A DNA stretch of 64,000 bases from Candidatus Sericytochromatia bacterium. GTDB lineage: Bacteria; Cyanobacteriota; Sericytochromatia; UBA7694. The stretch spans positions 7,823 to 71,822 of the forward strand of contig JADMKE010000047.1 of the NCBI GenBank assembly GCA_018780035.1, in the 5' to 3' direction. Each line of letters starts with the position of its first letter. The first letter of the stretch is position 1. The notes under the pieces are model-generated. The model was not told the origin of the DNA and made no database searches. It worked only from the letters and a program-made list of their open reading frames with translations. The position numbers and the translations under genes were made by a program. Of this stretch, positions 46,977 to 64,000 are shown in pieces.

Positions 46977-47635
46977 CCTTTTCCATACACTGTTTGAATC
47001 TGACATTGGGTGGGCCATTTTTTTAAGCGATTGCGCAAGCGATTAATATGGGTCTCAACCAAATGGGCATCCCTTTCTGGCAAAAAAGCCCCTCCCCAAA
47101 GATGGCTGTAAAGCTCGGATTTGGAAAGCAAATCAGGTGAATGAGCAAAAAAGATTTTTAAGAGTCTGTGTTCCATTTCTGAAAGGGACAGCGGCACCTG
47201 ATTGCAATAAAACAGATCTTGACTTTGATCTAAGCGCAGCAGGCCAATTTGTAAACAGGTATTATTCAGCAGATAAGCCCGCAATTGGGCTTTTACACGG
47301 GCCAATAATTCTCTGACATCAACGGGTTTGACAATATAGTCGTTGGCACCTGCTTCAAGGGCTTGAATTTTGGTCTCTACACTGCGTTCTGCCGAAAAAA
47401 TGATCACAGGGGTATTCCATTGATTGCGTATTTTTTGGCAGAGTTGAATCCCATTGCCATCGGGCAATTCCAAATCCAAGAGAATCAAATCAATTTTTTG
47501 GCAGGACAATTGTTTGAATCCCTCTGCACCCGTGACAGTTAAATGGGTTTGATACCCTTGGGTTTCGAGACTCATGCGCGTAAATGTTGCCAAACGCAAA
47601 TCGTCTTCAATAATTAAAATCGTCTGATCGCTCAT
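46955..47635 (-). CDS. OmpR/PhoB-family response regulator
   Basis: REC segment ILIIEDD...DLILLDLELPDGNG...K. The C-terminal winged helix reads LSEMEHRLLKIF...VETHINRLRNRL...IQTVYGKGY. Confidence 0.9.
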   Translation of the reverse strand: MSDQTILIIEDDLRLATFTRMSLETQGYQTHLTVTGAEGFKQLSCQKIDLILLDLELPDGNGIQLCQKIRNQWNTPVIIFSAERSVETKIQALEAGANDYIVKPVDVRELLARVKAQLRAYLLNNTCLQIGLLRLDQSQDLFYCNQVPLSLSEMEHRLLKIFFAHSPDLLSKSELYSHLWGGAFLPERDAHLVETHINRLRNRLKKWPTQCQIQTVYGKGYFLRAC

Positions 47636-47636
47636 T

Positions 47637-51481: not shown

Positions 51482-51538
51482 ACTGTGTTTACCTCCGAGA
51501 CTTCTATTACCAGCTTAAGTCTCAGGCCCGTGTGAAAG

Positions 51539-51573
51539 AATCAGACTTTAAGCCCTTTCAGTGTCGGACTTTT
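51539..51573 (-). promoter_or_regulatory. bipartite locus motif, copy 5 (minus strand AAAAGTCCGACA-N17-CTGATT)
   Basis: The plus strand has tgtcgg at 51562..51567 and aatcag at 51539..51544. It lies 57 nt upstream of ATG 51481. Confidence 0.4.
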
Positions 51574-52937
51574 CTGACGGCCAAACGTGAGCCTAGCCTG
51601 GGCCCTGGAGTTTGTTTCTGAGACTGTCTTTCTAATCTTTCCAAGACCAGGATCAGGGCGAAGACCAGCATCAATTGGTAAAAATTATTCGATTGTTTGA
51701 GCACCCATTCAAAACAGGTTTCGAGATAAATCGAGACCTGCCCAGCGGCCAAACCCAACGCCAGTGCCTTGTATACGGGGTTCTGGGCTTTAAAAAAGAG
51801 CCGAAAAGCCCGAAACGCAAATCCCCAGAGCAGAATCACATAGAGGGCCAAACTGTGCCAACCGGCCTCAGCTGCCACCATCAGGTAAGCCGTTTCCACC
51901 AATCCGCCTTTTTCCTCTTCCTCTTCGGGATCATTGCTCTCTTTGCGGGGAATGTGGTCCCCATAGGGGTAAGGGGGGTTGATCTTGAGGCCAAAATTGT
52001 TTAAACCAATGCCGAGGGGTTTGTCGGCCACCATGCGCAGGGCGGCAATGGCCAAAACCTGACGCACCTCCATCGACTCTTCGGGAGCTGTTTCAAAGCG
52101 CTCGTGAATGGAGTCGCTGGCTTTCCAAGCAATGGCTCCCCCCATGGTCAAGGCCAAGAGCAGCACAGCCGTTTTACGCAGGCTGATCTGGCTTGGGGTA
52201 TACGAAAATACAAAAACCAAAGCCAGTCCCAAGGCCAAAAACAACATCCCGCCACGGGAGAAGGTAAACACAGTGCACAACATGCCCACGGCCAAAAGTC
52301 CCAGCCAAAACAGACTGATAGCTGCAGAGCTGCGCTTTTGATTGAGTACATATGAAAAGAGCAGGCAGTTGAACAAATTGACATACATGACCAATGAGTT
52401 TTGGTGCGGAAAGGGCCCTTTGGCCTGCCACATACCCATGCGGTATTTTTGGTTGAGCATTTCATAAAAGATATACAACATGACCAATGCCACGGCCCTT
52501 AAAAACCACTGCAATTGTCTGGGGTTTTGAATCCAATGGCTCACAACCCAAAAAAGCAGGTACATTCTCACCATCTTAAACAGCTCAAAGGCCACAAACA
52601 GTGGCTCTCCGGCATTGACCACCGAGAGGGCTGAAAAGGCAAAATAGAGCCAAAAGACCGTCGAACCTGGCGGCCAAGGGGTGAGTTTGAACTGTTGCCG
52701 TCTGAGCCACAGGGCCCCCAACATACCCAGCGCCAAGATATCGATCAAAGAGACCTCAAAGCCTTTGGCAGTGCCCCTGTAAAACTCCATTGAAACAAAG
52801 TTAATATCCACGGTTTTTACAGTTAAAAAGACCAAGAGTGGAATCACGGCATTGCGCAATCGTGCTGAACGCGACAAAACCAGTGCCAGCAAAGGGGTTC
52901 CCACCACCAAAAAGGCAAAAAACGCCAGGTATTTCAT
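51558..52937 (-). CDS. O-antigen polymerase/ligase family membrane protein (Wzy-like)
   Basis: More than 10 TM segments. FTFSRGGMLFLALGLAL is a Wzy_C-type segment, and there is a large periplasmic-type loop. The start is taken at ATG 52937, which forms an ATGA overlap with the acetyltransferase stop. Confidence 0.7.
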   Translation of the reverse strand: MKYLAFFAFLVVGTPLLALVLSRSARLRNAVIPLLVFLTVKTVDINFVSMEFYRGTAKGFEVSLIDILALGMLGALWLRRQQFKLTPWPPGSTVFWLYFAFSALSVVNAGEPLFVAFELFKMVRMYLLFWVVSHWIQNPRQLQWFLRAVALVMLYIFYEMLNQKYRMGMWQAKGPFPHQNSLVMYVNLFNCLLFSYVLNQKRSSAAISLFWLGLLAVGMLCTVFTFSRGGMLFLALGLALVFVFSYTPSQISLRKTAVLLLALTMGGAIAWKASDSIHERFETAPEESMEVRQVLAIAALRMVADKPLGIGLNNFGLKINPPYPYGDHIPRKESNDPEEEEEKGGLVETAYLMVAAEAGWHSLALYVILLWGFAFRAFRLFFKAQNPVYKALALGLAAGQVSIYLETCFEWVLKQSNNFYQLMLVFALILVLERLERQSQKQTPGPRLGSRLAVRKVRH

Positions 52938-53542
52938 GGCTCTAACAGGGCCCATTGTTTTTGGACTTCTTTTTCTTCTTCAGCTCTTTCAGGTGCAGAG
53001 GGCGCCTCAGGGCGCAAGCGCACCACACGGGCCGGAATGCCCACCGCCACACCATAAGCGGGTACATCACCGAGCACAACGGCGTTGGCGCCGATGCGGG
53101 CATAATCGCCCAAAACCACCCCACCGAGGATCTTGGCGCCTGTGGCAATTTCAACTTCGTGGCCAATCTGGGGATTGTCGATCTCATGCTCCTGTCCACG
53201 GGTGCCCAGGGTCACGCCCTGGTGGAGAATACAATTTTTGCCTATGCGCACATATTCACCGACCACGACCCCATTGGGGTGCGGCAAAAACAGGCCGCCT
53301 TGAATCTGGGCCCCGCGGGCGATATCGCAGCCAAAAAGAATTTGATTGGACAATGCGCTGAGTTTTGAAGGCAGTCCCCAATTCAGAGCGTGAAAGAAAC
53401 CTGCCAGCCTGAACAGCAAGACAGGCAAAAAGCGCGGATGCAGCAGGGACTTCCAAAATTGTGGACGAAAAGGCCAACTGTCTTTGAATTTACACAGATC
53501 GGCTTGTAGGTAATTCTTTAAGTCTGATAGGGCTTGGAACAT
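52934..53542 (-). CDS. hexapeptide-repeat O-acetyltransferase (serine acetyltransferase-like)
   Basis: LPHPNGVVVGEYVRIGKNCILHQGVTLG...HEVEIATGAKILGGVVLGDYARIGANAVV follows the CysE/LbH pattern. Confidence 0.85.
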   Translation of the reverse strand: MFQALSDLKNYLQADLCKFKDSWPFRPQFWKSLLHPRFLPVLLFRLAGFFHALNWGLPSKLSALSNQILFGCDIARGAQIQGGLFLPHPNGVVVGEYVRIGKNCILHQGVTLGTRGQEHEIDNPQIGHEVEIATGAKILGGVVLGDYARIGANAVVLGDVPAYGVAVGIPARVVRLRPEAPSAPERAEEEKEVQKQWALLEP

Positions 53543-53616
53543 CTTCGGCCTCCTAAAAAAAGTGCTGGCCGGTTTACCCGGCTGTGTTAAGCATAAAGGT
53601 TGCCTCCAAGCAAAAC

Positions 53617-53651
53617 ATTCAGCTTTTTGTGACAGGGCCTGTCAGAATTTT
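53617..53651 (-). promoter_or_regulatory. bipartite locus motif, copy 6 (minus strand AAAATTCTGACA-N17-CTGAAT)
   Basis: The plus strand has tgtcag at 53640..53645 and attcag at 53617..53622. It lies 74 nt upstream of ATG 53542. Confidence 0.4.
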
Positions 53652-53700
53652 CCCAAACTTGAATCAGGGCAAGAGGGGGCCGGACTTCTGGTGAGGAGGG

Positions 53701-54606
53701 TTAAGCTGCTGGATGTCTTTGCAACACCGTGACCTGGCCTTTGCCCGGATCTACAGATTTGTTCTGAATCCGTTGCCAGCCGTGGGTCCAGCCGCGAAAA
53801 TGGGCAAAGTGAAAAACCACGCGCCGGGGCAAGGCAAGGCCGGCCTCTTTCAGCTGCCGCTGCTTGAGACTGGCTTGGATATCCCGCGCAGTATCGGCCA
53901 AGACCCGCAAAGGCGCTTTCAACCAGGGGTATTGGGAATTTTGCATATAGGCATCCGCTTCCCCTTCGATAAAACGCCGGCCATAGAGTTGTTTGAGGGT
54001 GTAATTGTGAGAGTGCATGACCTCGGCCTGGGGCACATAGGCAATTTTGAGCCCTTGTTTTTGGGCCCTGAAACCCCATTCGCTGTCTTCTGAGCCCCAG
54101 GCCCAGGTATAAAAAGGCATTTTTTTCCAGGCACTTTTGCGCATGGCGGCCAAGGGCAGAGAATAGGTCATCCAGTCCGGCGCAGGGCCTTCAGCGGGAA
54201 AGGCTTTGGCATAATCCCTTTGCACCCAGGGATCCGCTTCGGGCCGGGGAATTTGGCGGGCAAAGCTGGCCACAATCTGCGGATCTTCAAAGGGCTGGAG
54301 CAGGTGGTCCAACACCTGTTCGTTTAACATCACCACATCGCTGTTGAGAAAGACCAAAATTTCACCTCGGGCAATTTGGGCGGCCTGGTTGAGGACTTTG
54401 CCTGGAAAATACGCTTCGGGAGCAATTGTCTGAATTTGGTGGGCACAGGGTTTGAGCCATTCTAAGCTCTGATCGCGGGTGCCTGAATCCATCACGATCA
54501 ATTCAAAGTCGATAAAGCGTTGGTTAAACAGCGCTTTGAGGACTTCAGCCATAGTCTCTTCGCTGTTTTTATTGCGCAAAATAATGCTGACTAAAGGCGC
54601 GCTCAT
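53701..54606 (-). CDS. GT2 glycosyltransferase
   Basis: VSIILRNKNSEETMAEVLKALFNQRFIDFELIVMDSGTRD...FLNSDV. Confidence 0.85.
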   Translation of the reverse strand: MSAPLVSIILRNKNSEETMAEVLKALFNQRFIDFELIVMDSGTRDQSLEWLKPCAHQIQTIAPEAYFPGKVLNQAAQIARGEILVFLNSDVVMLNEQVLDHLLQPFEDPQIVASFARQIPRPEADPWVQRDYAKAFPAEGPAPDWMTYSLPLAAMRKSAWKKMPFYTWAWGSEDSEWGFRAQKQGLKIAYVPQAEVMHSHNYTLKQLYGRRFIEGEADAYMQNSQYPWLKAPLRVLADTARDIQASLKQRQLKEAGLALPRRVVFHFAHFRGWTHGWQRIQNKSVDPGKGQVTVLQRHPAA

Positions 54607-55436
54607 ACCAAACTCCTTTCCGGCAGAACAGCTGCCTGGGCCATGGCGCTCATGGTCATCTGTGGGCGGGTTGCAATATACGCCAAAATGCGCTGAGCAG
54701 AAGCATATTGGTCGCAGAGATACATGGTGATTGGGTGTAAGATCAAATTGGAGATCACACCCAGGGCCTCATTGGCTTTGAGCTGTTCCAAGACCATGTC
54801 CGTCCAGACTTCAATTGAATACGATTCTGAGCCAAAATCGTCGGACCAATGATAGCGTTTGACCCATTGATCGACCCATTCCGGGGTGCGTTCAGCGTGG
54901 TAGAGATGTTCGTGATCGGGAATAATATTCAAGGGGAAATTGTAAATCCCCGTTGGATGCAATTCGGGCCCATTGCTGTCTTTGCGTACACCATCGGAGC
55001 AGATCAAAATGCCTGCCGCTTTGAGCAGGGCCTCGGTATAAGGCCCATGTTTGTACATGTGATTGCGCCAGCTGGTGATTTTGCGGCCAGTTTGGTCTTC
55101 GATGATCGCAATCGTCTTTTGCAGATCGCGTTTTTGGTACCAAGCTGGGCCATTGTAAGAGCCCAAGGCCTTGTTCCAGAAGCGGTGCCAAAGCTGGGGT
55201 TCAAAACAATCCCAATTGTGGCCCCCAATTTCAATCAGGGGGTTGTTCACAATCGGAACCAGGGCCGGGCCCTCTTCTAAGAAGGCCTTGCCGCTGATAA
55301 AATACGTTGCTTTGACCCCATATTCTGTCAATAATTGGGCAAAATCGAGTGCTGTTTGAACTTCAGACAAATCGCTGTGGGCCTGATTGCCTGTTCCGAG
55401 ACTGCTGTGATGAATATCTGCACTGAGCACAATCAT
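54603..55436 (-). CDS. polysaccharide deacetylase-like (CE4-like) protein
   Basis: MIVLSADIHHSS...KATYFISGKAF...EIGGHNWD follows a NodB-like pattern. The start is ATG 55436, which forms an ATGA overlap with the upstream stop. The family call is moderate. Confidence 0.55.
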   Translation of the reverse strand: MIVLSADIHHSSLGTGNQAHSDLSEVQTALDFAQLLTEYGVKATYFISGKAFLEEGPALVPIVNNPLIEIGGHNWDCFEPQLWHRFWNKALGSYNGPAWYQKRDLQKTIAIIEDQTGRKITSWRNHMYKHGPYTEALLKAAGILICSDGVRKDSNGPELHPTGIYNFPLNIIPDHEHLYHAERTPEWVDQWVKRYHWSDDFGSESYSIEVWTDMVLEQLKANEALGVISNLILHPITMYLCDQYASAQRILAYIATRPQMTMSAMAQAAVLPERSLV

Positions 55437-56653
55437 ACCAAGACCTCCTGACGGTGTAATTGTTTCTGCCAAATTTTGAGCCGGGGCAAGAGTCCGGGAT
55501 CGAGATAACTTCCCCAGGCCTGCAAATAATCGCCAAGTAAATCTTGAAGTGTCAAAGGTTCTGCATTCAATTGCTCGCGTACCCAGGCCAGATAATTCCC
55601 ATCGGTCAGTTCATAAGCCACTGCTGGAAACATCAGCGCCAAGACACTGGCGTTGTCTTGAAAGCGCAGTCCCAAATTGGCAAACAGACCCATTTTGGCT
55701 GAAAAAGACTGGTTGAAAATAAAGTGTTTTAAGCGGCGCAAACGGGTTCCCCGGTAGCCCCATTCTGCGTGCAGACTCTGTAAGATCGCCCGAGAGGGAT
55801 AGTCTTTCCAGGTAAAGTGAGAGAGCGGGGTTTCCAAGCGCCAGGCTTCAAAAGCCAAATGTCCTTGGGCGAATAATTCCAGCAATTCTTCGTTCCAGAC
55901 TTGCAAGTCATGCTGGTTAAAGGCAAGATAATCGGGCCGGTATCTGAACTCCGCTGCCTGGTGATAGGCCTGACGCAATTGCATGGGCAAATCCAGGGCT
56001 GCATTCATGCGCTGCTGTTTTTCGAGATAACTCCAATGGTAATCTCCGCGCATGAATAAAAGGGCGTCCCCCAGCCCGATAATGGCTTTCATGCCATGGC
56101 GGATGATTTGCTCACGCAGGCCCGCACTGGGTTGACCTTGGGCCAAGAGCCAACGGTTGATCAGCAGCAAAGAGCCCCGATTGACCAACAAATTGCGCAT
56201 ATCGCTGGGCAAAATATCTTCGACAGTGTAGCGAATCATCTTTGCCCATGTTTCGGGTTTGCCCAAAAGCAGGCGATGCCCAAATTTCATGTCGTAGAGC
56301 ATCACCAAACAGGGCAGTCTTTTGAGTCGGGCTTCATCGATCACAAAACTGTCGAGCGCCACCCCATAACTTTCTTCAAAAGAACGGGACTCACTTTCGA
56401 GTTTGCTGCGAATGGCATCCACTTGGGAGGCGTGGGGAGCCACCCAGACCAAATCCAAATTGTTGTGAAGGTTTTCTTGGCCATTGACCCACTGCACGCC
56501 TCCCTCTCCGCGGCCGTATCCGCCCGCGATCACCACTGCACTGTAATCTTCGCGGCTGAAACTGGCCTGAAGTCGGTTGCGTAGACCTTGAATCATAGCC
56601 TCGATCTTGTTTTCTAAGGCGGGGCTGCCCGCCACGGTCCATTTTCTGATCAT
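55433..56653 (-). CDS. hypothetical protein with a nucleotidyltransferase-fold-like N-terminus
   Basis: VVIAGGYGRGEGG ... NNLDLVWV resembles the G-[GS]-x-x-R-G-E ... D-x-D motif of Pol-beta-type NTases, with the first Asp replaced by Asn. The start is ATG 56653 (GGAGG 7 nt upstream, ATGA overlap). Confidence 0.4.
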   Translation of the reverse strand: MIRKWTVAGSPALENKIEAMIQGLRNRLQASFSREDYSAVVIAGGYGRGEGGVQWVNGQENLHNNLDLVWVAPHASQVDAIRSKLESESRSFEESYGVALDSFVIDEARLKRLPCLVMLYDMKFGHRLLLGKPETWAKMIRYTVEDILPSDMRNLLVNRGSLLLINRWLLAQGQPSAGLREQIIRHGMKAIIGLGDALLFMRGDYHWSYLEKQQRMNAALDLPMQLRQAYHQAAEFRYRPDYLAFNQHDLQVWNEELLELFAQGHLAFEAWRLETPLSHFTWKDYPSRAILQSLHAEWGYRGTRLRRLKHFIFNQSFSAKMGLFANLGLRFQDNASVLALMFPAVAYELTDGNYLAWVREQLNAEPLTLQDLLGDYLQAWGSYLDPGLLPRLKIWQKQLHRQEVLV

Positions 56654-57846
56654 ATACATGCCTCCTGAAGGGAATTTGGAATTTGGATCAACTGTTGAAA
56701 GGCTGGGATCAATCGGCTGAGATGGTGTTCGATTCTGAAGTGTTTTTGCCACATCGAAAAGCCGTTTTGGCCCAGGCGAGAGGCCAAATCTGGATTCTGT
56801 CCAAGGCGGCGGATGGCGTAAGCCAAGGCTTGAATATTGCCGCTGGGAAAGAGCAGGCCATTGACACCCGGTTTAAGCCAGGTGCGCACCCCACCGACAT
56901 CGCTGCTGATCACGGCCCGCCCGGCAGCCATGGCCTCGACCCCTGTCAGGGCAAAGGTCTCTGGCGCACGGCTGGGAATAATGACGGCCGCTGAGCTTGC
57001 GAGCCAGTTAGACAATTCATGCGGGGCCAGTTGCCCCAAAAATTTCACCCGATCATTTAATCCCAGCTTCAGGGCTTGTGCTTGGTAATCCGTAGCTTGG
57101 CGGCCTTCTCCGGCAATCACCAGTTGGGCTTGGGGCACCAGCACCAGCGCTTCGAGCAAAAGATCGAGCCCCTTGCCTGTGACCAATTGGCCCACAAATA
57201 AAAATTGCAGGGGATGTTTCACCGGGGTGGGCAAAGATTTTACAGTGGGCTCTGCAAAGAGGGGGGCTGTCAGGATGCGTTTGCTGTTAAAGCCATGGGC
57301 TTCAATGTGATTGGCAAAATAATCCGAAGCCACCACCGCCAGATCCAAGCGTTGGTTAATGGCCAAATGGCTTTTCATGGGCCCCAGGGTGCGCAGGGCC
57401 AAGCCCTCTTCCTCGCGGACAACCAGACCGGGGCAGAGATAACAGTGGGCTCCCAGGGTGCGGCTGCAGGTCTGTTTGCCAAAGCCTGTGTATTTGTGTT
57501 CACGCAGGCAAAAGAGTTGGTGATCGTGGTAAAAACGCACCAGCGGGATCCCTGTGTCTAACAGGCTTTCCAGATCTTTGCCCCAGGAAGCGCGCGCTCC
57601 GGGTTGGCGGTGGAGATAGATCAGATCGGGTTGGATTTGTTTGACTTGTTTGGCAAGCTCTACAGCTGGCCAAGCCTGTTCGAAGGCATTGAGAAAAGCC
57701 GGTTGGCTGTGTCCCGGGCCATAGAGCAGGGATGATTGAAAACCGTGGGCTTTGAGGGCCGGCGCTACCTGGGTCAGATAGCGTTCGGCACCGCCGGTGC
57801 CACGGGCCCGGTCATGAATCCAGAGTAATTTGATTGGGTTGGGCAT
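56650..57846 (-). CDS. GT4 glycosyltransferase
   Basis: N-terminal GTGGAERYL. C-terminal PETFALTGVEAMAAGRAVISSDVGGVRTWLKPGVNG. Confidence 0.85.
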   Translation of the reverse strand: MPNPIKLLWIHDRARGTGGAERYLTQVAPALKAHGFQSSLLYGPGHSQPAFLNAFEQAWPAVELAKQVKQIQPDLIYLHRQPGARASWGKDLESLLDTGIPLVRFYHDHQLFCLREHKYTGFGKQTCSRTLGAHCYLCPGLVVREEEGLALRTLGPMKSHLAINQRLDLAVVASDYFANHIEAHGFNSKRILTAPLFAEPTVKSLPTPVKHPLQFLFVGQLVTGKGLDLLLEALVLVPQAQLVIAGEGRQATDYQAQALKLGLNDRVKFLGQLAPHELSNWLASSAAVIIPSRAPETFALTGVEAMAAGRAVISSDVGGVRTWLKPGVNGLLFPSGNIQALAYAIRRLGQNPDLASRLGQNGFSMWQKHFRIEHHLSRLIPAFQQLIQIPNSLQEACI

Positions 57847-58035: not shown

Positions 58036-59196
58036 ATGAAACGCAAATTGGCCCTGTTTACCTTCTTCGACGCCCTGGGCTGGGAAATCTACAAACACTA
58101 TGGTTTTATGGCTGACGAAGTGCGCGATGCCCGCCCTTTGCAAACCGTCTTTGGTTTTTCTTCAGCCGCAGACCCGAGCATACTCTCGGGTCAGTACCCC
58201 GAAGCCCATGGGCATTGGTCGAGCTTTATCTACGATCCAAAAAACTCCCCCTTTAAACTGATGAATATGGTCAAACACCTGCCCCGCAGCCTCTTCGACC
58301 GCTGGCGGGTGCGGCATTGGCTGAGCAAATTATTGGCCAAGGCCTATGGCTTTACCGGGTATTTTGAAATTTATTCAGTGCCTTTTGGGGTATTGCCCCA
58401 TTTTGACTATCTCGAAAAACGGGATTATTTTGTGCCGGGGGGTATTTTAAAGGGCGACACCATTTTTGATTGGTTGAGTCAACGGGGCATTGCCTATCAC
58501 TGCTCCAATTGGCGTTTGTCTGAAACAGAAAACCTGGCCGCGCTCCAGCAAGAGATATCCAAAGGCGAGATCCAATTTGCCTATCTCTATTTGCCCGCCC
58601 TGGATGGTTTGATGCATGGGGTGGGCACGCGTCACGCCAAAGTGGCTGAGAAACTGCGCTGGTACGAAGGGGAAGTGAAAAAAATCTTGGCCCAGGCCCG
58701 CGAAAACTACGATGAAGTGAGCTTTTATGCCTTCTCGGATCATGGCATGGCAGATGTGGTGGGCAGTGTTGATCTGATTGCCGTGATCGAGAAACTCGGC
58801 TTAAAATTTGGCCAAGATTATGTGGCCATGTACGATTCCACCATGGCCCGTTTCTGGTTTCCCAACCCAGCTGCACGGGCCCAGATCGAACAGGCGCTGG
58901 CCCAAGTGCCCGAAGGCCGGGTCTTGGCTGGGGCAGACCTCAAACGCTGGCACTGTGAGTTTGGTGATACCCGGTTTGGTGAGCTGATCTTTTTGCTCAA
59001 ACCCGGTCTGCTGATTGTGCCCAGCTTTATGGGGCTCAAAGCCATTCCCGGCATGCACGGCTATGATCCCAGCCACAAAGATTCTTATGCCTGCGTGCTT
59101 TCCAACCGGGTCTTGCCCAAAAACATCCACGATTTAACCGATCTGAGAGGCCTGATGGAGGCCGAGATCAAACAGGGTTTGGAGGTTGGCGTATGA
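58036..59196 (+). CDS. alkaline-phosphatase-superfamily protein (nucleotide pyrophosphatase/phosphodiesterase-like)
   Basis: FDALGWE, FGFSSAADPSILSGQYPEAHG, FSDHGM and GMHGYDP are AP/NPP-type metal-site segments. Confidence 0.75.
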   Translation: MKRKLALFTFFDALGWEIYKHYGFMADEVRDARPLQTVFGFSSAADPSILSGQYPEAHGHWSSFIYDPKNSPFKLMNMVKHLPRSLFDRWRVRHWLSKLLAKAYGFTGYFEIYSVPFGVLPHFDYLEKRDYFVPGGILKGDTIFDWLSQRGIAYHCSNWRLSETENLAALQQEISKGEIQFAYLYLPALDGLMHGVGTRHAKVAEKLRWYEGEVKKILAQARENYDEVSFYAFSDHGMADVVGSVDLIAVIEKLGLKFGQDYVAMYDSTMARFWFPNPAARAQIEQALAQVPEGRVLAGADLKRWHCEFGDTRFGELIFLLKPGLLIVPSFMGLKAIPGMHGYDPSHKDSYACVLSNRVLPKNIHDLTDLRGLMEAEIKQGLEVGV

Positions 59197-61085
59197 AACC
59201 CCAAGCCTTGCTTTATGTTGCGATGCCTTATGATCAGGGCAAATCGGGGATCTCCGAATACATCCGAGCCACTTTGAGCGAATTGTCAAAACTTTCCCCG
59301 ATTCAGCTGATCGCTTTAAAATCTGATCTGCCTGAATTAACCCCCTGTTTGGCACCGGGTGCTCACCAAATCATCGCCTTGAACCTACTTTGGGGGAACC
59401 CCCTGTTGTCTTTGCTCTGGTTTTTGCTGGTCTTGCCTTTTCGTTTGCGCAAATTAGCCCCCCGTGGGGTCTTTATTCCTGCCGGCAATCGCCGCTTATT
59501 GCTGCAAAAGGCCTTTCCCCAGATCACCACCATTCACGATCTGGCCCCTTTGCGCCTGACGAAAAAATACGATCCCCTGCGCCAATTTTATCTCACCCGG
59601 CTGCTGCCAAATATGTTAAAGCGCGCAGGCAAATTGGTGGCGATCAGCCAGCAGACCGCCGACGACTTAATTGAATTGGCAGGCATAGCGCCTGATCAGA
59701 TCGCTTTGGCAGCCAATGGTTATAACGCAAGTCGCTTTCTGCCAGCGTCTGCCGCTGACGATTTTGAAAGGCTCAGGTCTTTGGGCTTGATGCAGTCAGA
59801 GACCACACCGACAGATTATCTGCTCTATGTGGCGCGCATTGAACATCCTGGCAAGAACCATATTGGCTTATTAGAGGCTTGGATGGCTTTGCCTGCGGCC
59901 TTGCGGAAGCAGAATACCCTTGTATTGTGCGGCAGCGATTGGAAAGGTGCCGAGGTTGTGCATCAATGGGTTGCGGCCCATCAACCTGAAAACGTGATCT
60001 TTACAGGCTTTGTCTCCGAGGCGGATTTACCTGCCCTCTATCGCCATGCCCAGCTCTACCTTCAGCCTTCACTTTATGAAGGTTTTGGTCTGCCCTTGGT
60101 CGAGGCCATGGCTTCGGGCTGCCCTGTTTTGAGTTCCAATCGGGGGGCCTTGCCAGAGGTCGGGGGCGATGCCGTCTGTTTGGTGGACCCTTTAGAAGCG
60201 GGGGCCTTGGCCATGGCTTTGCTGAATTTGCTGACAGACCCGGCAGCCCGCAAGCAGTTGGCCGACAAGGGCTTGCGCAGGGCGCAGGCCTTTAGCTGGG
60301 AGCGCCATGCCCAGATTGTCCTCCAGGGATTGGCTCCCTCACCCTCCCTGCGTCTCCAGGGGTTGAATCTGCGCAATGGTCATCTGACTGAGGTGTTGGC
60401 AGAAATGGCCGAGCGCATTCGCTCCCGCATCCCGACCCGCCTGTTTTACGTCAATGCAGACTGCCTCAATTTGGCCTGGTCAGACCGGGATTATCGCCAG
60501 GCCTTACAAACGGCCGATCTGCTTTTGCCCGACGGCAGTGGGGTGGCCTTGGCGGCCCGCCTGACAGGTCAAAGCCTGATTGAAAACCTCAATGGCACAG
60601 ACATGTTTGTGCCCCTGTGTGATAAAGCGATTGAAAACGGCTGGCGCGTCTGGTTTTTGGGCGGAAGGCCCGAGGTCAACGAGGCTTTGTATGAGAATCT
60701 CAAACAGCGCAAGCCTGCCTTGCAGATTGCCGGACACCACCATGGCTATTTTGATCCCCAGACTGAAGCTGAAATTGTGGCAAAGATCCGGGCCGATCAA
60801 CCTGATTTGCTCTTTGTGGCCATGGGGGCTCCGCATCAAGAGCGTTGGATTTCCAAATATGCTGATGTCTTGCAAGTGCCCATCATGCTGGGGGTCGGCG
60901 GTCTGTTTGACTTCTATTCGGGCCGTATTCCGCGTGCGCCATTGATGCTGCGCAAATTGGGTCTGGAGTGGACCTGGCGACTTTTACAAGAGCCCCTGCG
61001 GCTCTGGCAGCGTTATTTAATTGGCAATCCCCTGTTTGTGCTGCGCACATTGCGCACAGGCCGACAGTCCCCCCTGCGCGTGTGA
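59193..61085 (+). CDS. bifunctional glycosyltransferase: N-terminal GT4 fused to a C-terminal WecG/TagA/CpsF (GT26) domain
   Basis: GT4 segment LYEGFGLPLVEAMASGCPVLSSNRGALPEVGGDA. GT26 segment FYVNADCLNLAW...LLLPDGSGVALAARL...FLGGRPEV...LLFVAMGAPHQERW...GVGGLFDFYSGRIPRAP...GLEWTWRLLQEP. There is an ATGA overlap with the upstream gene. Confidence 0.85.
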   Translation: MKPQALLYVAMPYDQGKSGISEYIRATLSELSKLSPIQLIALKSDLPELTPCLAPGAHQIIALNLLWGNPLLSLLWFLLVLPFRLRKLAPRGVFIPAGNRRLLLQKAFPQITTIHDLAPLRLTKKYDPLRQFYLTRLLPNMLKRAGKLVAISQQTADDLIELAGIAPDQIALAANGYNASRFLPASAADDFERLRSLGLMQSETTPTDYLLYVARIEHPGKNHIGLLEAWMALPAALRKQNTLVLCGSDWKGAEVVHQWVAAHQPENVIFTGFVSEADLPALYRHAQLYLQPSLYEGFGLPLVEAMASGCPVLSSNRGALPEVGGDAVCLVDPLEAGALAMALLNLLTDPAARKQLADKGLRRAQAFSWERHAQIVLQGLAPSPSLRLQGLNLRNGHLTEVLAEMAERIRSRIPTRLFYVNADCLNLAWSDRDYRQALQTADLLLPDGSGVALAARLTGQSLIENLNGTDMFVPLCDKAIENGWRVWFLGGRPEVNEALYENLKQRKPALQIAGHHHGYFDPQTEAEIVAKIRADQPDLLFVAMGAPHQERWISKYADVLQVPIMLGVGGLFDFYSGRIPRAPLMLRKLGLEWTWRLLQEPLRLWQRYLIGNPLFVLRTLRTGRQSPLRV

Positions 61086-61129: not shown

Positions 61130-61153
61130 GGCGGCTTTCGGGCCGCTTTTTTT
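61130..61153 (+). terminator. rho-independent terminator
   Basis: GCGGC (61130..61134) pairs with GCCGC (61141..61145) around a 6-nt loop TTTCGG, which reduces to a TTCG tetraloop if T61135 and G61140 wobble-pair. Eight Ts follow. It lies 45 nt after the stop at 61085. Confidence 0.7.
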
Positions 61154-61221
61154 TGTGTGGGTTTGTTGATGGGGGTTGTTTATGATTTTCGGGATGGGTG
61201 TGTTCATTCCAGACTGTAGGG

Positions 61222-61315: not shown

Positions 61316-61672
61316 ATGTATATTGAAGTTGAATACATGCCCCAACTGAACCGCGCCACGCTCTATCTGGAGGGCAATTTAACGGCGGCCACCCACCGCC
61401 AATTCGAAAAGAATTTTGAGCCTGTTTTGTCGCAAGCAGCTGTGATTGTGCTGGATTTAAGCGAAGTCAAAATACTCGACAGCACAGGCCTTGGGGCTTT
61501 GATTCGCTGTTTAAAACTCAGTTTAAACGCCAAAGCCCGCCTGATTCTGACCGGGGTTCAGCCTTCACCCCGGATGGTCTTGGAATTAACCCGCACAGAC
61601 CAATTGTTTGAAATCTATGATTCTCAAACAGCGGCCTTTGTCAGCTTGGAAATGGAGGCAAAAATCGCATGA
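61316..61672 (+). CDS. STAS-domain protein (anti-sigma-factor antagonist, SpoIIAA/RsbV-like)
   Basis: 118 aa. LDLSEVKILDSTGLGALI contains the phosphorylatable Ser context D-S-T-G. GGAGG lies 8 nt upstream of ATG 61316; the ORF-track start at 61301 is TTG. Confidence 0.85.
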   Translation: MYIEVEYMPQLNRATLYLEGNLTAATHRQFEKNFEPVLSQAAVIVLDLSEVKILDSTGLGALIRCLKLSLNAKARLILTGVQPSPRMVLELTRTDQLFEIYDSQTAAFVSLEMEAKIA

Positions 61673-62970
61673 AAGGCGTCATTATTTTTCAGGATAATCA
61701 AATATCTGAAAATTTAATTGCTTTAATGCCTGGTCAGAGCCCTTGGCTCTTGCCTGTTTCTGGCAAGCCGATTCTCGAATTCCAATTGGAAACCCTGGCC
61801 TGTATGGGCATACGAGAAGTGCTCATGATTGGCGCTGGCCCGAGTATCAGCCGCAAATATGGCCAGGGTCAGTCTTTGGGGCTGCAATTGGACTATGCAC
61901 CTGCAGTTTCTAATCTAGATCTGTCTTTGGTCTTGCGCCGCAATCTGCAATTTGTGACTGGGCACGATTTGGTCTTGATCCAGGGTTTAAAATTGACCCT
62001 GCCACAACATGCTCCCCATTGTCTGCGTCTGACGGGCTCTCAGCGTTTGGGTGAGGGGGTCTATGCCTTGTCTGCCAAAGAGTTGCCCCAGATTTTGCAC
62101 GACGCAAAGAATTTAAATGACCTGCCCCTGAATGCCAGTTTGGATATTCACCCCATCACCGATGCCCAATCGTATTTGGCTGGGCATTTTTGGTTGGCAG
62201 AAAAAGGGCTCAACGGTCTGAGCTTGCCCGCTTATGGCCAAAAACAGGGGGTTTTGATTGGGTCTCAATTGCAAATCCCAGCGGATCTTTCCCTGATGGG
62301 CCCTGGCCTGATTGCCGATGGCTGTAAATTGGCTCGCGGGGTGCAATTGGAGCAGGTTTGGCTGGGCAAAGGTGTGGTCGTGGGCCCCGGCACCCACTTA
62401 AAGCGCTGTGTGGTCTTGCCTGGTACCTGGATCGGCCCCGGTCTGAGCTTGGCAGACAAATTGGTTTCAGGTCAGACCCTGCTTGACATCTCTGCAGATA
62501 GTTTGGTTGAAATAGAAGAGTCGGCTTGGCTGGATCACATCGACCCGCCTTTTCAGAGAGATGTATCGAGCCGTGTTTTTGCAGGTTTGCTCTGGGCCCT
62601 GCAGACCCCTTTTCAAGCGCTGTTGCAGAGCGAGTGGTCTTCGCAAGATCCCCGCTGGCAGGATTTGCGGGATCGTTGGTCTGAGCGTTTGCATTTGGAA
62701 TTGCGGCCCAAAATGTGGCAGGTGGCGACAGGTCAAATGGCTTTAGTTGGACAACCGCCTGTGGCCAAAGGAGAACGCTCTGCTTACCTCGATTATGTGC
62801 CCGGCGCTTTGCCCTATTCAGATTTTTTGGGGTCTCAAGGTGAACAGGCAGAATTAGACAATGCCTGTTATCCCCTGATTCGCAATTCTGGCGCAGAACT
62901 CAAAATGGCGTTGAAGATCCTGTCCAGATCACTGACAACAAACGGGGAACTCAGGCAAGATAGACAATGA
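61669..62970 (+). CDS. degenerate NTP-transferase-like - left-handed beta-helix - sugar-transferase-remnant fusion (probable pseudoenzyme)
   Basis: The N-terminus MKGVIIFQDNQISENLIALMPGQSPWLLPVSGKPILEF keeps the LLPV-GKPIL part of the sugar-nucleotidyltransferase fold but lacks G-x-G-x-R. Hexapeptide-like repeats lie around GVQLEQVWLGKGVVVGPGTHLKRCVV. The C-terminal LELRPKMWQVATGQMALVGQPP echoes [21 protein letters not shown]. Confidence 0.55.
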   Translation: MKGVIIFQDNQISENLIALMPGQSPWLLPVSGKPILEFQLETLACMGIREVLMIGAGPSISRKYGQGQSLGLQLDYAPAVSNLDLSLVLRRNLQFVTGHDLVLIQGLKLTLPQHAPHCLRLTGSQRLGEGVYALSAKELPQILHDAKNLNDLPLNASLDIHPITDAQSYLAGHFWLAEKGLNGLSLPAYGQKQGVLIGSQLQIPADLSLMGPGLIADGCKLARGVQLEQVWLGKGVVVGPGTHLKRCVVLPGTWIGPGLSLADKLVSGQTLLDISADSLVEIEESAWLDHIDPPFQRDVSSRVFAGLLWALQTPFQALLQSEWSSQDPRWQDLRDRWSERLHLELRPKMWQVATGQMALVGQPPVAKGERSAYLDYVPGALPYSDFLGSQGEQAELDNACYPLIRNSGAELKMALKILSRSLTTNGELRQDRQ

Positions 62971-64000
62971 AATTGACTGCCACAGAGGAAACCCCTATGA
63001 ATCCGGGTGTTGTAGATCTGCCTGAATTGCCAGAATCTCCCGAAGCCCAAACCGCTGTTAAGAGAGAATTGGACCTCAGGCTCTTGGTCACCAGCTTATT
63101 GCTACGTTGGCCCTTGGTCTTGGCTTTGACCTGTTTGGGCGCAGGCGGGGGGTTCTTTGCCAGCCAGCAAATTCAGCCCCATTACCAGGCCCGGACCGTT
63201 TTGCTGCGCCACAATAAAAATACCAATATCAGCCCAGATATCTATTTCGAACCCAATTTGCGCACCCTGCTCGAAACAGTCAAGCTCAGGGGCAATCTCC
63301 AAGACCTCAAACGCAAATTGGGTCTGTCGCTCAGTGACGAAGCCCTGTTTAAAGCCATAGATATTCAGCCCGGCAACCGCAACGACATCATCCAGATTAT
63401 TGCCACAGCACCCACCCCCAAACAAGCTGCCGCCATGGCCAATGGCATCAGCGCCATTTTTCAGCACTCTTCGGCCCAGGTTTCGCGGTCGGTGGCTGAA
63501 CGGGTCTGGCGCTTTCGCACGGGCGAGCGCCAAAATTTAAACAGCGAGTTAAAAGCTGCTCAAAACAAATTGGCGGGGTTTCAGGCCCAACACCAAATCA
63601 GTTTTTACAGCGACACCACCCGACTTTTGCTCGAGCAAATCAAACAATTTGAACTCGATCAAAACAATGCCAAACTGACCCTGCAGAGCAACCAACTGAC
63701 CCTGTCTGAAATGCAAAAAGAAATCAAAAAACGCCCCGAAAATATCCGGGTCATGAGCACCGTTAGGTACCGCAGCCGGGTCAGATACGATGAATTGCAA
63801 GATCAGCTCAAAGGTCTCTTGGAAAAATACACCGAGACCCATCCCAAGGTCTTGGCTCTGCGGGCCCAATTGGAAAGCCTGGGCCGCCAATTGGAAAAAC
63901 CCAGTCAGGCCATTCCCGAAGAAGAGAGTTTTGGCATGGATCCCGTCGTGCGAGAGTTAAAGATCAAACAGGCCGAATTGGCCGCAGGTCTAAGCGGTGG
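62967..64000 (+). CDS. polysaccharide co-polymerase / chain-length determinant (Wzz/GumC-like), 5' part; runs off the right edge
   Basis: Not in the ORF track because there is no stop in the window. ATG 62967 forms an ATGA overlap with the previous stop; an alternative start is ATG 62997. It has the TM helix LLLRWPLVLALTCLGAGGGFF, a Wzz-like segment (YQARTVLL...IIQIIATAPTPKQAAAMANGISAIF), then coiled-coil. Confidence 0.75.
   Translation, partial: MKLTATEETPMNPGVVDLPELPESPEAQTAVKRELDLRLLVTSLLLRWPLVLALTCLGAGGGFFASQQIQPHYQARTVLLRHNKNTNISPDIYFEPNLRTLLETVKLRGNLQDLKRKLGLSLSDEALFKAIDIQPGNRNDIIQIIATAPTPKQAAAMANGISAIFQHSSAQVSRSVAERVWRFRTGERQNLNSELKAAQNKLAGFQAQHQISFYSDTTRLLLEQIKQFELDQNNAKLTLQSNQLTLSEMQKEIKKRPENIRVMSTVRYRSRVRYDELQDQLKGLLEKYTETHPKVLALRAQLESLGRQLEKPSQAIPEEESFGMDPVVRELKIKQAELAAGLSG

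What the first reader, a model, noticed from the sequence alone, without database searches (positions are those of the whole stretch)
61316..62970. STAS gene start/stop-overlapped (ATGA) with a pseudoenzyme gene and then a chain-length determinant
The STAS stop (TGA 61670..61672) overlaps the ATG (61669..61671) of the 433-aa degenerate fusion. The stop of that gene in turn overlaps ATG 62967 of the Wzz-like gene. Such coupling usually accompanies stoichiometric complexes. A plausible and, to my knowledge, undescribed arrangement is that the STAS switch acts directly on the polymerisation/export machinery through the pseudoenzyme, rather than (or as well as) through a sigma factor.
Basis: inference. 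Interest (0 to 1): 0.75.

Follow-up and report, generated by a model that had tools for sequence, protein, structure and literature searches.

The report
STAS switch paired with polysaccharide pseudoenzyme
A small phospho-switch protein (STAS) is encoded next to a catalytically dead three-domain sugar-enzyme look-alike in the polysaccharide gene clusters of at least ten bacterial phyla, which points to an undescribed route by which this kind of switch controls sugar-coat production directly rather than through gene transcription.

Summary
The STAS gene (61316..61672) overlaps the 433-aa gene (61669..62970) by ATGA, as reported. A second ATGA exists at 62967. However, the conserved start of the Wzz-like gene is probably ATG 62997, and distant relatives have no overlap there. 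ATGA overlaps are routine in this window (6 of 38 same-strand pairs).

The 433-aa protein ("X") has three domains:
- a nucleotidyltransferase-like domain without the catalytic signatures;
- a left-handed beta-helix;
- a phosphoglycosyl-transferase (PGT)-like domain without the Asp-Glu dyad.

X belongs to a widespread, unnamed family. The main finding is co-occurrence. A STAS gene with an invariant DSTGLG phospho-serine motif lies directly upstream of X in 6 of 6 Sericytochromatia lineages. The same holds in 30 of 33 informative loci from eight other phyla, and in 0 of 5 controls. The neighbour that recurs most often is a real small PGT, more often than the chain-length determinant.

In this window the real PGT (39710..40426) lies 21 kb away. 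It shares an operon with a REC-PP2C-kinase protein of HsbR type, the likely modifier of the STAS.

Best reading: the STAS and X form the output of a partner switch that gates initiation of polysaccharide synthesis post-translationally. The concept has precedents (SypA; Anabaena All4160, 2026). I found no description of the STAS + X module.

The parts
61130..61155 (+). Terminator-like hairpin plus T8 after the GT4-WecG gene. It suggests that STAS-X-PCP starts a separate transcription unit.
   Evidence: 7-bp stem, 5 GC pairs, T-run; fold z-score -3.2.
61316..61672 (+). STAS-domain-only protein, 118 aa, of the anti-sigma-antagonist type. The phosphorylatable Ser56 is at 61481..61483, within LDSTGLG.
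   Evidence: PF01740 1.1e-15, TIGR00377 4e-13. Ser56 aligns with the SpoIIAA phospho-serine. D55-S56 are invariant.
61669..62970 (+). Protein X, 433 aa, a three-domain pseudoenzyme. Residues 1 to about 185 are nucleotidyltransferase-like, about 190-285 are a left-handed beta-helix, and about 298-433 are monotopic-PGT-like. Its start overlaps the STAS stop (ATGA).
   Evidence: AF2 model pLDDT 91.8. Foldseek top hits are the UGPase Tlr0611, GMPP and eIF2B epsilon. hhalign vs real PGTs gives 98.2%.
62560..62970 (+). PGT-like C-terminal domain of X. It has a helix with conserved Pro314 (re-entrant-helix-like). The motif 'LELRPKMWQVATGQMALVGQPP' replaces the PGT motif '[22 protein letters not shown]'.
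   Evidence: The catalytic Asp-Glu dyad is EL here and DK or DR across the family.
62997..64000 (+). Wzz/PCP-like chain-length determinant. It runs off the window and is 670-680 aa in relatives, with no Tyr-kinase domain. An alternative start is ATG 62967, which overlaps the X stop.
36897..38411 (+). Response-regulator receiver + PP2C (SpoIIE) phosphatase + RsbW-type serine kinase, the HsbR/CrsR architecture. It is the only partner-switch enzyme found in the window and the candidate modifier of STAS Ser56.
   Evidence: Response_reg 2e-22, SpoIIE 3.6e-39, HATPase_c_2 6e-9; a phmmer search with two stand-alone RsbW-type kinases from other loci found no further kinase, and only one STAS gene was detected; PMC6482189 for HsbR.
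39710..40426 (+). Bona fide small monotopic phosphoglycosyl transferase, the initiating enzyme. It is a close homologue of the PGTs that sit next to STAS-X in other phyla. Here it lies in the operon REC-PP2C-kinase -> GT4 -> PGT -> GT4.
   Evidence: Bac_transf 4.5e-67; 1e-71..1e-87 to the neighbour PGTs; TIGR03025 8e-87.
38404..39657 (+). GT4 glycosyltransferase between the REC-PP2C-kinase gene and the PGT gene.
40438..41652 (+). GT4 glycosyltransferase after the PGT gene.
58036..61085 (+). Phosphodiesterase-family protein (58036..59196) and GT4+WecG/TagA fusion glycosyltransferase (59193..61085). Both are cassette genes conserved with STAS-X across phyla.
48771..57846 (-). The divergent arm of the same polysaccharide cluster: Wzx-like flippase, GT4, Wzy_C polymerase, hexapeptide acyltransferase, GT2, deacetylase, a conserved unknown protein (55433..56752) and GT4.

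Best explanation
The STAS gene and the 433-aa gene X encode a conserved two-protein module, which I read as the output end of a partner-switching phospho-relay built into a Wzx/Wzy-type exopolysaccharide cluster.

**Shown**
- The STAS protein keeps the phosphorylatable serine.
- X is a fusion of a nucleotidyltransferase-like domain, a beta-helix and a PGT-like domain. Both enzyme-like domains lack their catalytic signatures.
- The STAS-X gene pair is conserved across at least ten phyla, usually next to a real initiating phosphoglycosyl transferase.
- The window encodes one REC-PP2C-kinase protein, in an operon with that PGT.

**Inferred**
- The REC-PP2C-kinase sets the phosphorylation state of STAS Ser56 in response to a histidine-kinase signal.
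- One phospho-form of STAS binds X.
- X sits at the membrane through its PGT-like domain and docks on the real PGT. Related PGTs are dimers.
- X thereby switches the first committed, undecaprenyl-phosphate-consuming step on or off post-translationally.
- The dead nucleotidyltransferase domain may additionally sense a nucleotide-sugar, as GMPPA does. This last step is speculative.
For: **Pair conservation**
- The STAS gene lies directly upstream of X, on the same strand, in all 6 Sericytochromatia lineages, always with an ATGA overlap.
- The same arrangement holds in 30 of 33 informative X loci from Myxococcota, Planctomycetota, Desulfobacterota, Armatimonadota, Cloacimonadota, Lentisphaerota, Verrucomicrobiota and Delongbacteria, plus one locus of unknown phylum.
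- It holds in 0 of 5 control loci that match only the nucleotidyltransferase part.
- The X-linked STAS proteins form one family with DSTGLG in 31 of the 32 aligned.

**Link to initiation**
- A real Bac_transf PGT lies directly upstream of STAS in 19 loci and between STAS and X in 6.
- The window's PGT is their close homologue (1e-71..1e-87).
- In the window the PGT shares an operon with the REC-PP2C-kinase.
- In three loci X is followed by a second STAS and an RsbW-type kinase.

**X is PGT-like but degenerate**
- hhalign gives 98.2% probability, E 6e-14, over 162 columns.
- The X HMM also hits the real PGT (1.3e-11).
- Asp-Glu becomes EL (window) or DK (family), and PRP is lost.
- The N-terminus lacks GxGTRL, has Lys->Trp and has GD->GL.
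- The fold matches pyrophosphorylases, including known pseudoenzyme regulators: GMPPA, KJC2 and eIF2B.

**Precedent**
- Anabaena All4160 is a STAS + Bac_transf fusion regulated by Ser74 phosphorylation through HenR (REC+SpoIIE) and kinases (PMC13555669).
- WbaP is a homodimer with a nucleotide-sensing regulatory domain, and the small PGT CapM is regulated by phosphorylation (PMC10942596).
- WecG glycosyltransferases in at least 11 of the loci also carry a degenerate PGT-like domain. This suggests that such domains act as docking modules around the PGT.
Against: - No physical interaction has been tested, and no multimer prediction was possible.
- In the window the PGT and the REC-PP2C-kinase are 21-24 kb from STAS-X, so their link to STAS rests on the gene order in other phyla. 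I could not show that the kinase operon is conserved in other Sericytochromatia (one search failed).
- In the Sericytochromatia branch the PGT-like domain of X is shortened. Its re-entrant-type helix is only weakly hydrophobic (max KD19 below 1.21, against a family median of 2.34), so membrane insertion is uncertain here.
- The PCP and Wza genes are also conserved downstream, so polymerisation or export cannot be excluded as the target.
- Three X loci lack a detectable STAS, and one STAS (L011) has lost the serine.
- Most family members keep the Asp of the dyad, so a residual or altered activity of X is not excluded.
Confidence: 0.55

Rival explanations
1. STAS acts through X on the polymerisation/export machinery (the Wzz-like co-polymerase and Wza) and tunes chain length or export rather than initiation.
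For: - The order X -> PCP-like (about 670 aa) -> Wza is conserved in Sericytochromatia. With one or two genes in between, it is also conserved in most other phyla.
- The X-PCP spacing is short everywhere in Sericytochromatia, with a possible ATGA in three lineages.
Against: - The overlap is not conserved, and the likely start is 62997.
- In other phyla one or two genes (GT4-like, phosphodiesterase, an unknown protein) separate X from the PCP. By contrast the PGT is immediately adjacent to STAS or X.
- The homology of X is to the PGT, not to any PCP partner.
- The experimental precedent (All4160) is a PGT.
Confidence: 0.17
2. A classical partner switch. The STAS antagonises the kinase/anti-sigma domain of the REC-PP2C-kinase, which controls a sigma factor encoded elsewhere. 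The regulation is transcriptional, and X is simply a structural or enzymatic cluster gene co-transcribed with STAS.
For: - The STAS is of SpoIIAA/RsbV type.
- REC-PP2C-kinase proteins such as HsbR and CrsR do control sigma factors: FlgM/FliA and RpoS (PMC6482189).
Against: - No sigma factor gene was found among the annotated window ORFs.
- This model does not explain why a specific STAS subfamily stays glued to X across about ten phyla while kinases and phosphatases are usually elsewhere.
Confidence: 0.13
3. X is not a pseudoenzyme. It is an active enzyme with non-canonical chemistry, for example a divergent PGT or a nucleotide-sugar-using transferase. The STAS is its regulatory or substrate-presenting subunit, as MlaB is for MlaF.
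For: - Most family members keep the Asp of the PGT dyad in a strongly conserved 'LSLDKxPLL...LVGN...YxPGVF' block.
- 50 of 73 members hit Bac_transf and 32 of 73 hit NTP_transferase in Pfam.
- The STAS gives a weak MlaB hit.
Against: - The window lineage has E, A or D at that position, and L or R instead of Glu.
- PRP, KRxxD, GxGTRL, the Lys and the Mg-binding Asp are missing family-wide.
- The near-invariant residues are mostly Gly, Pro and Tyr, with few acidic or basic catalytic candidates.
- A real PGT accompanies X in nearly every locus.
Confidence: 0.12

Closest known systems
Anabaena sp. PCC 7120 All4160 / HenR / Alr3423 module, with homologues XssP and All2285 (Harada, Matsuoka & Ehira 2026, PMC13555669; bioRxiv 10.64898/2026.04.08.717354)
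   Same: - A STAS domain with a phosphorylatable serine controls exopolysaccharide synthesis directly at the initiating Bac_transf enzyme.
- The phosphatase is a REC + SpoIIE response regulator.
- The phylogenetic neighbourhood is related: Cyanobacteria and Sericytochromatia.
   Different: - There the STAS is fused to an active PGT. Here it is a free 118-aa protein paired with a separate, catalytically degenerate nucleotidyltransferase-LbH-PGT-like protein, and the real PGT is a third gene.
- Here the kinase is fused to the REC-PP2C protein.
Vibrio fischeri SypA (STAS) / SypE (kinase-REC-PP2C) in the syp polysaccharide locus (PMC4517449, PMC10120452)
   Same: - A stand-alone STAS is encoded inside a Wzx/Wzy-type polysaccharide cluster.
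- It is controlled by a response regulator that carries both a serine kinase and a PP2C domain.
- Its downstream target is unknown and is not a known sigma factor.
   Different: - From my own knowledge, the syp locus has no X-type protein. I did not test this here.
- The domain order of SypE differs.
- SypA was not compared directly with the window STAS.
HsbR-HsbA (Pseudomonas) and CrsR-CrsA (Shewanella) partner switches (PMC6482189)
   Same: - The REC-PP2C-kinase architecture is identical to that of window 36897..38411.
- The STAS partner can bind non-sigma targets (HsbA binds the diguanylate cyclase HsbD).
   Different: - Their outputs are FlgM/FliA, HsbD and RpoS, with no polysaccharide pseudoenzyme.
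- Their genes are adjacent. In the window the STAS is 23 kb from the kinase.
Nucleotidyltransferase-LbH pseudoenzyme regulators: GMPPA (with GMPPB), KONJAC/KJC (with VTC1), eIF2B gamma/epsilon, GlgD
   Same: - The two-domain fold is the same, and these proteins are among the top Foldseek hits.
- They are catalytically impaired paralogues that act as regulatory or sensing subunits.
   Different: - None of them carries a PGT-like membrane domain or is paired with a STAS protein.
- X diverges far more in sequence (no PF00483 hit for the window protein).
Monotopic phosphoglycosyl transferases (PglC, WbaP; PF02397; PMC10942596)
   Same: - The C-terminal domain of X is homologous over the whole core, including the helix with a conserved Pro.
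- WbaP also combines a nucleotide-binding regulatory domain with the PGT core, and it dimerises.
   Different: - X lacks the Asp-Glu dyad, the PRP motif and the KRxxD motif.
- In the window lineage the domain is shortened and less hydrophobic.

Membership tests
STAS anti-sigma-factor antagonist (SpoIIAA/RsbV type, PF01740 / TIGR00377) | STAS domain match above the curated threshold | tested here: met
   PF01740 scores 57.8 bits against a cut-off of 22.6. TM1442 gives 2.2e-9 and SpoIIAA 4e-4. TIGR00377 scores 49.1, just below its cut-off of 53.45.
STAS anti-sigma-factor antagonist (SpoIIAA/RsbV type, PF01740 / TIGR00377) | Conserved phosphorylatable Ser in the DS(S/T)G loop | tested here: met
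   Ser56 aligns with the Ser that is mutated to Ala in 1tid relative to 1th8. It is invariant in 31 of 32 X-linked STAS proteins.
STAS anti-sigma-factor antagonist (SpoIIAA/RsbV type, PF01740 / TIGR00377) | Cognate RsbW-type kinase and PP2C phosphatase | tested here: inconclusive
   One REC-SpoIIE-HATPase_c_2 protein lies in the window at 36897..38411. Whether it is the cognate enzyme is inferred, not tested. In L012, L014 and L018 an RsbW-type kinase lies 2 genes after X.
STAS anti-sigma-factor antagonist (SpoIIAA/RsbV type, PF01740 / TIGR00377) | A sigma factor as the final output | tested here: not met
   No sigma-70 or ECF family gene was found among the window ORFs scanned. One could be encoded elsewhere in the genome.
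Sugar-1-phosphate nucleotidyltransferase (PF00483; RmlA/GlmU/ManC) | Rossmann-like NTase fold followed by an LbH | tested here: met
   AF2 model pLDDT 91.8. Foldseek hits: 8x7s 1.9e-14, VTC1, GMPPB, AGPase. The profile against RmlA gives 1.5e-12.
Sugar-1-phosphate nucleotidyltransferase (PF00483; RmlA/GlmU/ManC) | G-x-G-T-R-(L/F) nucleotide-binding loop, conserved Lys (SKQLLP in RmlA) and the 'GD' Asp | tested here: not met
   The N-terminus reads MKGVIIFQDNQISEN. The Lys is replaced by Trp (PWLLPV, invariant in the clade). 'LGDN' becomes 'QGLK'. That the RmlA Lys and Asp are catalytic is my own knowledge. There is no PF00483 hit for the window protein.
Monotopic phosphoglycosyl transferase (PF02397, PglC/WbaP) | Homology to the catalytic core | tested here: met
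   hhalign gives 98.2% probability and E 6e-14 over 162 columns. The X HMM hits the window PGT at 1.3e-11. Single-sequence Pfam gives only E 0.029.
Monotopic phosphoglycosyl transferase (PF02397, PglC/WbaP) | Asp-Glu catalytic dyad (PMC10942596) and the PRP motif | tested here: not met
   The window has E-L and VGQPP. The family consensus is D-K and VGN.
Monotopic phosphoglycosyl transferase (PF02397, PglC/WbaP) | Hydrophobic re-entrant membrane helix with a helix-breaking Pro | tested here: inconclusive
   Pro314 is conserved and helix 299-322 is predicted. The family median for the maximum KD19 is 2.34 at about residue 311. The window protein is weaker, below 1.21.
Polysaccharide co-polymerase (Wzz, PF02706 / TIGR03007) | Wzz N-terminal domain and a coiled-coil periplasmic region | tested here: met
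   PF02706 scores 30.1 bits against a cut-off of 25.5. TIGR03007 gives 5e-21 for the window fragment and 3.9e-38 for the full-length L009 homologue, below the equivalog cut-off. No Tyr-kinase domain is present.
HsbR/CrsR-type partner-switch response regulator | REC + PP2C + kinase/anti-sigma domain in one polypeptide (PMC6482189) | tested here: met
   Response_reg at residues 9-114, SpoIIE at 187-371, HATPase_c_2 at 385-496.
STAS-PGT fusion proteins (All4160/XssP type) | STAS and an active Bac_transf domain in one polypeptide | tested here: not met
   They are separate genes here. The top 120 relatives of the STAS are all stand-alone proteins of 109-131 aa. The X PGT-like domain is degenerate.

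The most novel reading that the evidence does not exclude
STAS + X is a previously unrecognised, pan-bacterial output module for partner-switching signalling. The phospho-switch protein binds a membrane-associated pseudoenzyme, which is a dead NDP-sugar pyrophosphorylase fused to a dead phosphoglycosyl transferase. This pseudoenzyme heterodimerises with the real initiating PGT and gates commitment of undecaprenyl phosphate to exopolysaccharide, possibly integrating nucleotide-sugar availability through the dead pyrophosphorylase domain. It would supply the long-missing type of direct target for SypA-like STAS regulators of biofilm polysaccharides.
Probability: 0.35. Interest if true: 0.8.

Novelty: new variant of a known kind. 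Interest (0 to 1): 0.66.

Why it matters
How partner-switching STAS proteins control polysaccharide and biofilm production after transcription has been open since V. fischeri SypA. The first mechanistic case, the Anabaena STAS-PGT fusion, appeared only in 2026.

The module found here is a free STAS and a three-domain pseudoenzyme that always travel together next to the initiating PGT, in at least ten phyla. It gives a concrete and testable candidate for the missing link. It defines an unnamed protein family, currently mis-annotated as 'NDP-sugar synthase' or 'sugar transferase'. It also suggests that dead PGT domains serve as docking modules for assembling and regulating the initiation complex.

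It also matters for annotation. X should not be counted as a nucleotide-sugar synthase or a priming transferase in metabolic reconstructions.

Tried and rejected
1. **AF2 of X with only the 6 close homologues.** This gave pLDDT 51 and was unusable. It was replaced by the 73-sequence alignment, which gave pLDDT 91.8.
2. **The search for related loci with the 72-sequence alignment.** This failed because no conserved stretch was found. An 11-sequence subset worked.
3. **Metagenome scan with the REC-PP2C-kinase protein.** The aim was to test whether its operon with the PGT is conserved in other Sericytochromatia. It returned only receiver-domain matches in gut metagenomes, a dead end.
4. **Rosetta-stone test.** I searched with the STAS profile for STAS-X or STAS-PGT fusions among the closest relatives. 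The top 120 of 2179 hits were all stand-alone STAS proteins, so the test was uninformative. No STAS-X fusion appeared among the 150 best X relatives either. An apparent 596-aa 'fusion' ORF in L018 is only an out-of-frame upstream extension.
5. **Whole-model Foldseek.** The first two domains dominated the results, so it did not report the PGT-like domain. That domain rests on hhalign and HMM evidence.
6. **A small PGT at 46955..47635.** I considered it and rejected it: the ORF is an OmpR-type response regulator.
7. **ATGA overlap as evidence of a stoichiometric complex.** I rejected it as a discriminating signal, because 16% of same-strand pairs in the window have it.
8. **Literature searches for the module.** Terms covered phosphoglycosyl transferase + STAS + fusion, pseudoenzyme + STAS + exopolysaccharide, and the 2024 monoPGT survey. 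None described X.
Full report
**1. Observation**

- An ORF from ATG 61316 (preceded by GGAGGA) to TGA 61672 encodes a 118-aa STAS protein.
- Its last four bases, ATGA at 61669..61672, contain the start of a 433-aa ORF that ends at 62970.
- The last four bases of that ORF again read ATGA, with an in-frame ATG at 62967 opening a Wzz-like ORF that runs off the window.

Pfam confirms the domains. STAS scores PF01740 at 1.1e-15, and Wzz scores PF02706 at 30.1 bits against a cut-off of 25.5. NCBIfam adds the XrtA-type chain-length determinant TIGR03007 at 5e-21.

Two qualifications apply.
- ATGA overlaps are routine in this window: 6 of 38 same-strand neighbour pairs have one. The overlap alone says little.
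- The second overlap is doubtful as a real start. The identical DNA in another assembly (L008) was called from ATG 62997, which is 30 nt downstream, in frame and behind AGAGGA. That start and its AGGA are conserved in L001 and L009. The more distant relatives L003, L004 and L007 have 25-62 nt gaps and no overlap.

The STAS/X ATGA, by contrast, is kept in all six Sericytochromatia lineages, down to 40% identity of X.

A terminator-like hairpin with a T8 run at 61130..61155 separates the upstream GT4-WecG gene from STAS. STAS-X-PCP is therefore probably a separate transcription unit.

**2. What the 433-aa protein is**

Single-sequence searches give only sub-threshold hits: LbH at 6e-4, the RmlA N-terminus at 9e-7 and Bac_transf at 0.029.

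A profile of the six close homologues, all Sericytochromatia or 'Blackallbacteria', was searched against the PDB. It matches:
- RmlA at 1.5e-12 (positions 16-108);
- the beta-helix of a UDP-glucose pyrophosphorylase and of eIF2B epsilon (positions 161-291);
- WbaP weakly, at 0.025 (positions 329-390).

An exhaustive search found about 100 full-length relatives of 440-490 aa at E below 1e-30. The named examples looked up are from Verrucomicrobiota, Desulfobulbaceae, Lentisphaerota and Kiritimatiellia. They are annotated only as 'NDP-sugar synthase' or 'sugar transferase'. Of 73 members scanned, 72 hit LbH_EIF2B, 50 hit Bac_transf (best 2.4e-13) and 32 hit NTP_transferase (best only 1.2e-7).

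With this alignment AlphaFold2 gives a confident model, with pLDDT 91.8 and pTM 0.83. Its best structural matches are sugar-nucleotide pyrophosphorylases and their pseudoenzyme relatives: Tlr0611 (1.9e-14), VTC1/KJC2, GMPPA/GMPPB, eIF2B gamma/epsilon and AGPase.

A profile-profile comparison of the C-terminal part with 27 real small PGTs gives 98.2% probability, E 6e-14, over 162 columns. The match runs from the re-entrant-helix region to the C-terminus. The X HMM also hits the window's real PGT at 1.3e-11.

Both enzyme-like domains are degenerate across the whole family.
- The GxGTRL loop is absent.
- The RmlA Lys is Trp in this clade (PWLLPV).
- 'GD' has become 'GL'.
- In the PGT-like domain the Asp-Glu catalytic dyad (PMC10942596) is D-K or D-R in the family and E-L in the window.
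- PRP and KRxxD are lost.

'Pseudoenzyme fusion' is therefore correct and can be made specific: pseudo-pyrophosphorylase, then LbH, then pseudo-PGT.

In the Sericytochromatia branch the PGT-like domain is shortened. Its Pro-containing helix is much less hydrophobic than in the rest of the family.

**3.

In all Sericytochromatia contigs the gene order is the same. One arm, on the opposite strand, carries GT2, deacetylase, an unknown protein and GT4. The other arm reads phosphodiesterase -> GT4+WecG -> STAS -> X -> PCP-like (about 670 aa) -> Wza.

Beyond this class I fetched 34 X loci from one-genome-per-species contigs and one from a Logan contig. I then searched their ORFs with a STAS HMM.
- Of 33 informative loci, 30 carry a STAS gene on the same strand just upstream of X. 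In 18 of them the distance from STAS to X is between -16 and +24 nt.
- In six Lentisphaerota or Verrucomicrobiota loci the order is STAS -> PGT -> X.
- Five control loci that matched only the nucleotidyltransferase part (archaea, Nitrospirae, Clostridia) have no STAS gene within 6 kb.
- The X-linked STAS proteins are one conserved family, with consensus GRLDA...FIDSTGLG...KPRMVFEITRA. The phospho-serine is kept in 31 of the 32 aligned.

The neighbour that tracks the pair most tightly is a real small PGT.
- Bac_transf hits reach 1e-70.
- The PGT lies directly upstream of STAS in 19 loci.
- It lies between STAS and X in 6 loci.

PCP-like, Wza, Wzy, WecG, GT4, phosphodiesterase and an unknown 400-aa protein are also shared. 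The whole cluster is thus a cassette found across phyla.

In three Desulfobacterota or Myxococcota loci X is followed by a second STAS and a 145-170-aa RsbW-type kinase.

**4. The rest of the switch in this window**

The window has only one STAS gene. It has one partner-switch enzyme, at 36897..38411: receiver + SpoIIE/PP2C (3.6e-39) + HATPase_c_2 (6e-9). This is the HsbR/CrsR architecture (PMC6482189).

That gene overlaps a GT4 gene, which is followed by a genuine 238-aa PGT at 39710..40426 and another GT4.
- The PGT scores Bac_transf at 4.5e-67 and TIGR03025 at 8e-87.
- It is a close homologue (1e-71..1e-87) of the PGTs that sit beside STAS-X elsewhere.

In this lineage the cassette therefore appears to have been split. 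The PGT went with the kinase/phosphatase, and STAS-X stayed with the PCP and Wza. No sigma factor gene was found among the window ORFs scanned.

**5. Mechanism**

*Shown:*
- a phosphorylatable STAS;
- a degenerate three-domain partner;
- their tight phyletic and positional coupling;
- the association of both with the initiating PGT;
- a REC-PP2C-kinase in the PGT operon.

*Inferred:*
- The REC-PP2C-kinase sets the phosphorylation state of STAS Ser56.
- One form of STAS binds X.
- X docks on the real PGT through its PGT-like domain and gates the first committed step.

Precedent makes these inferences reasonable.
- In Anabaena the STAS domain is fused to the PGT All4160. Ser74 phosphorylation by Alr3423 inactivates it, and the REC-SpoIIE phosphatase HenR reactivates it (PMC13555669).
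- WbaP is a homodimer with a nucleotide-sensing regulatory domain.
- The small PGT CapM is controlled by phosphorylation.
- GMPPA, KJC and eIF2B show that dead pyrophosphorylase-LbH proteins act as regulatory subunits (that these are catalytically impaired regulators is my own knowledge).
- In at least 11 of the cassettes the WecG glycosyltransferase next to the PGT also carries a degenerate PGT-like domain. This fits the idea that such domains are docking modules.

I put 0.55 on this model. Three rivals remain.
- The switch is a purely transcriptional sigma-factor switch, with X a bystander (0.13).
- X is an active, non-canonical enzyme with the STAS as its subunit (0.12).

**6. Comparison with what is known, and novelty**

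The idea that a STAS switch controls polysaccharide synthesis directly is not new. V. fischeri SypA/SypE has an unknown target (PMC4517449), and Anabaena All4160 was published in 2026. What I could not find described is this protein family and its obligatory pairing with a stand-alone STAS.

X fails the defining catalytic features of both enzyme families it resembles. It should not be filed as a member of either, although it clearly descends from them. I rate the finding a new variant of a known kind, with interest 0.66.

**7. Limits**

- Everything about binding and regulation is inference from gene context and homology.
- I could not run multimer predictions.
- I could not show that the kinase-PGT operon is conserved in other Sericytochromatia.
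- The weak hydrophobicity of the window protein's helix leaves its membrane association open.

Noticed in passing
window 36882..41652 (+): An operon encodes REC-PP2C-RsbW-kinase (HsbR-like), GT4, a real small PGT and another GT4. It is preceded by a DUF4114/DUF4842 protein (35209..36891), a REC-HisKA_3 kinase (32649..33836), a NarL-type response regulator (about 33833..34459) and ManC (31230..32639). It looks like the detached 'initiation + signalling' half of the same polysaccharide system.
   Followed up: partly
L016:3429-4823, L021:1122-2468, L012:2132-3502, L014:3564-4931, L018:3012-4877, L019, L020, L028, L013, L032, L042: The WecG/TagA-type glycosyltransferase just upstream of the real PGT carries an N-terminal degenerate PGT-like domain (E 1e-4..1e-11 against the PGT HMM). 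This is a second pseudo-PGT fusion in the same cassette. In the window the WecG domain is fused to a GT4 domain instead (59193..61085).
   Followed up: partly
L012:5995-6796, L014:7505-8323, L018:7398-8179: In Myxococcota and Desulfobacterota loci X is followed by a second STAS gene and a stand-alone RsbW-type kinase (HATPase_c_2 1e-18..4e-24). The full partner-switch set therefore sits in the cassette there.
   Followed up: partly
L011:5660-6016: One X-linked STAS has INGLGLG instead of DSTGLG, so the phosphorylatable Ser is lost. It may be a constitutive, phosphorylation-independent variant.
   Followed up: no
L009:16434-16766 and L010:7398-7730 (about 2.5 kb beyond Wza, outside the window): A second, paralogous STAS gene (38% identical, DSAGLG) lies next to an 864-aa phospholipase-D-domain protein and a cNMP-binding mechanosensitive channel in the 89%-identical relative.
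   Followed up: no
window 55433..56752 (-): A conserved protein of about 406-439 aa has no Pfam or NCBIfam match. It is part of the cassette in many phyla (phmmer down to 1e-34 in Cloacimonadota and Victivallales, often directly after X). Its function is unknown.
   Followed up: partly
window 41788..46439 (+): A 154-aa ORF with a partial protein-kinase domain lies directly upstream of a 1346-aa AAA_16-GAF-HisKA-HATPase protein. This may be one large Ser/Thr-kinase/STAND/histidine-kinase gene that is split by a frameshift or has a mis-called start.
   Followed up: no
window 46955..48719 (-): An OmpR-type response regulator and an HTH_3+TPR regulator sit at the edge of the polysaccharide cluster. 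They are candidate transcriptional regulators of it.
   Followed up: no
window 6892..8658 (-) and 22207..23997 (-): Two DUF885 paralogues lie 14 kb apart.
   Followed up: no
window 14338..17760 (-): A 1140-aa TPR + GT2 protein.
   Followed up: no
L023, L031, L038: Three Victivallales X loci have no detectable STAS within 6 kb. L023 and L031 also lack the adjacent PGT. These are natural exceptions and could test whether X depends on STAS.
   Followed up: no
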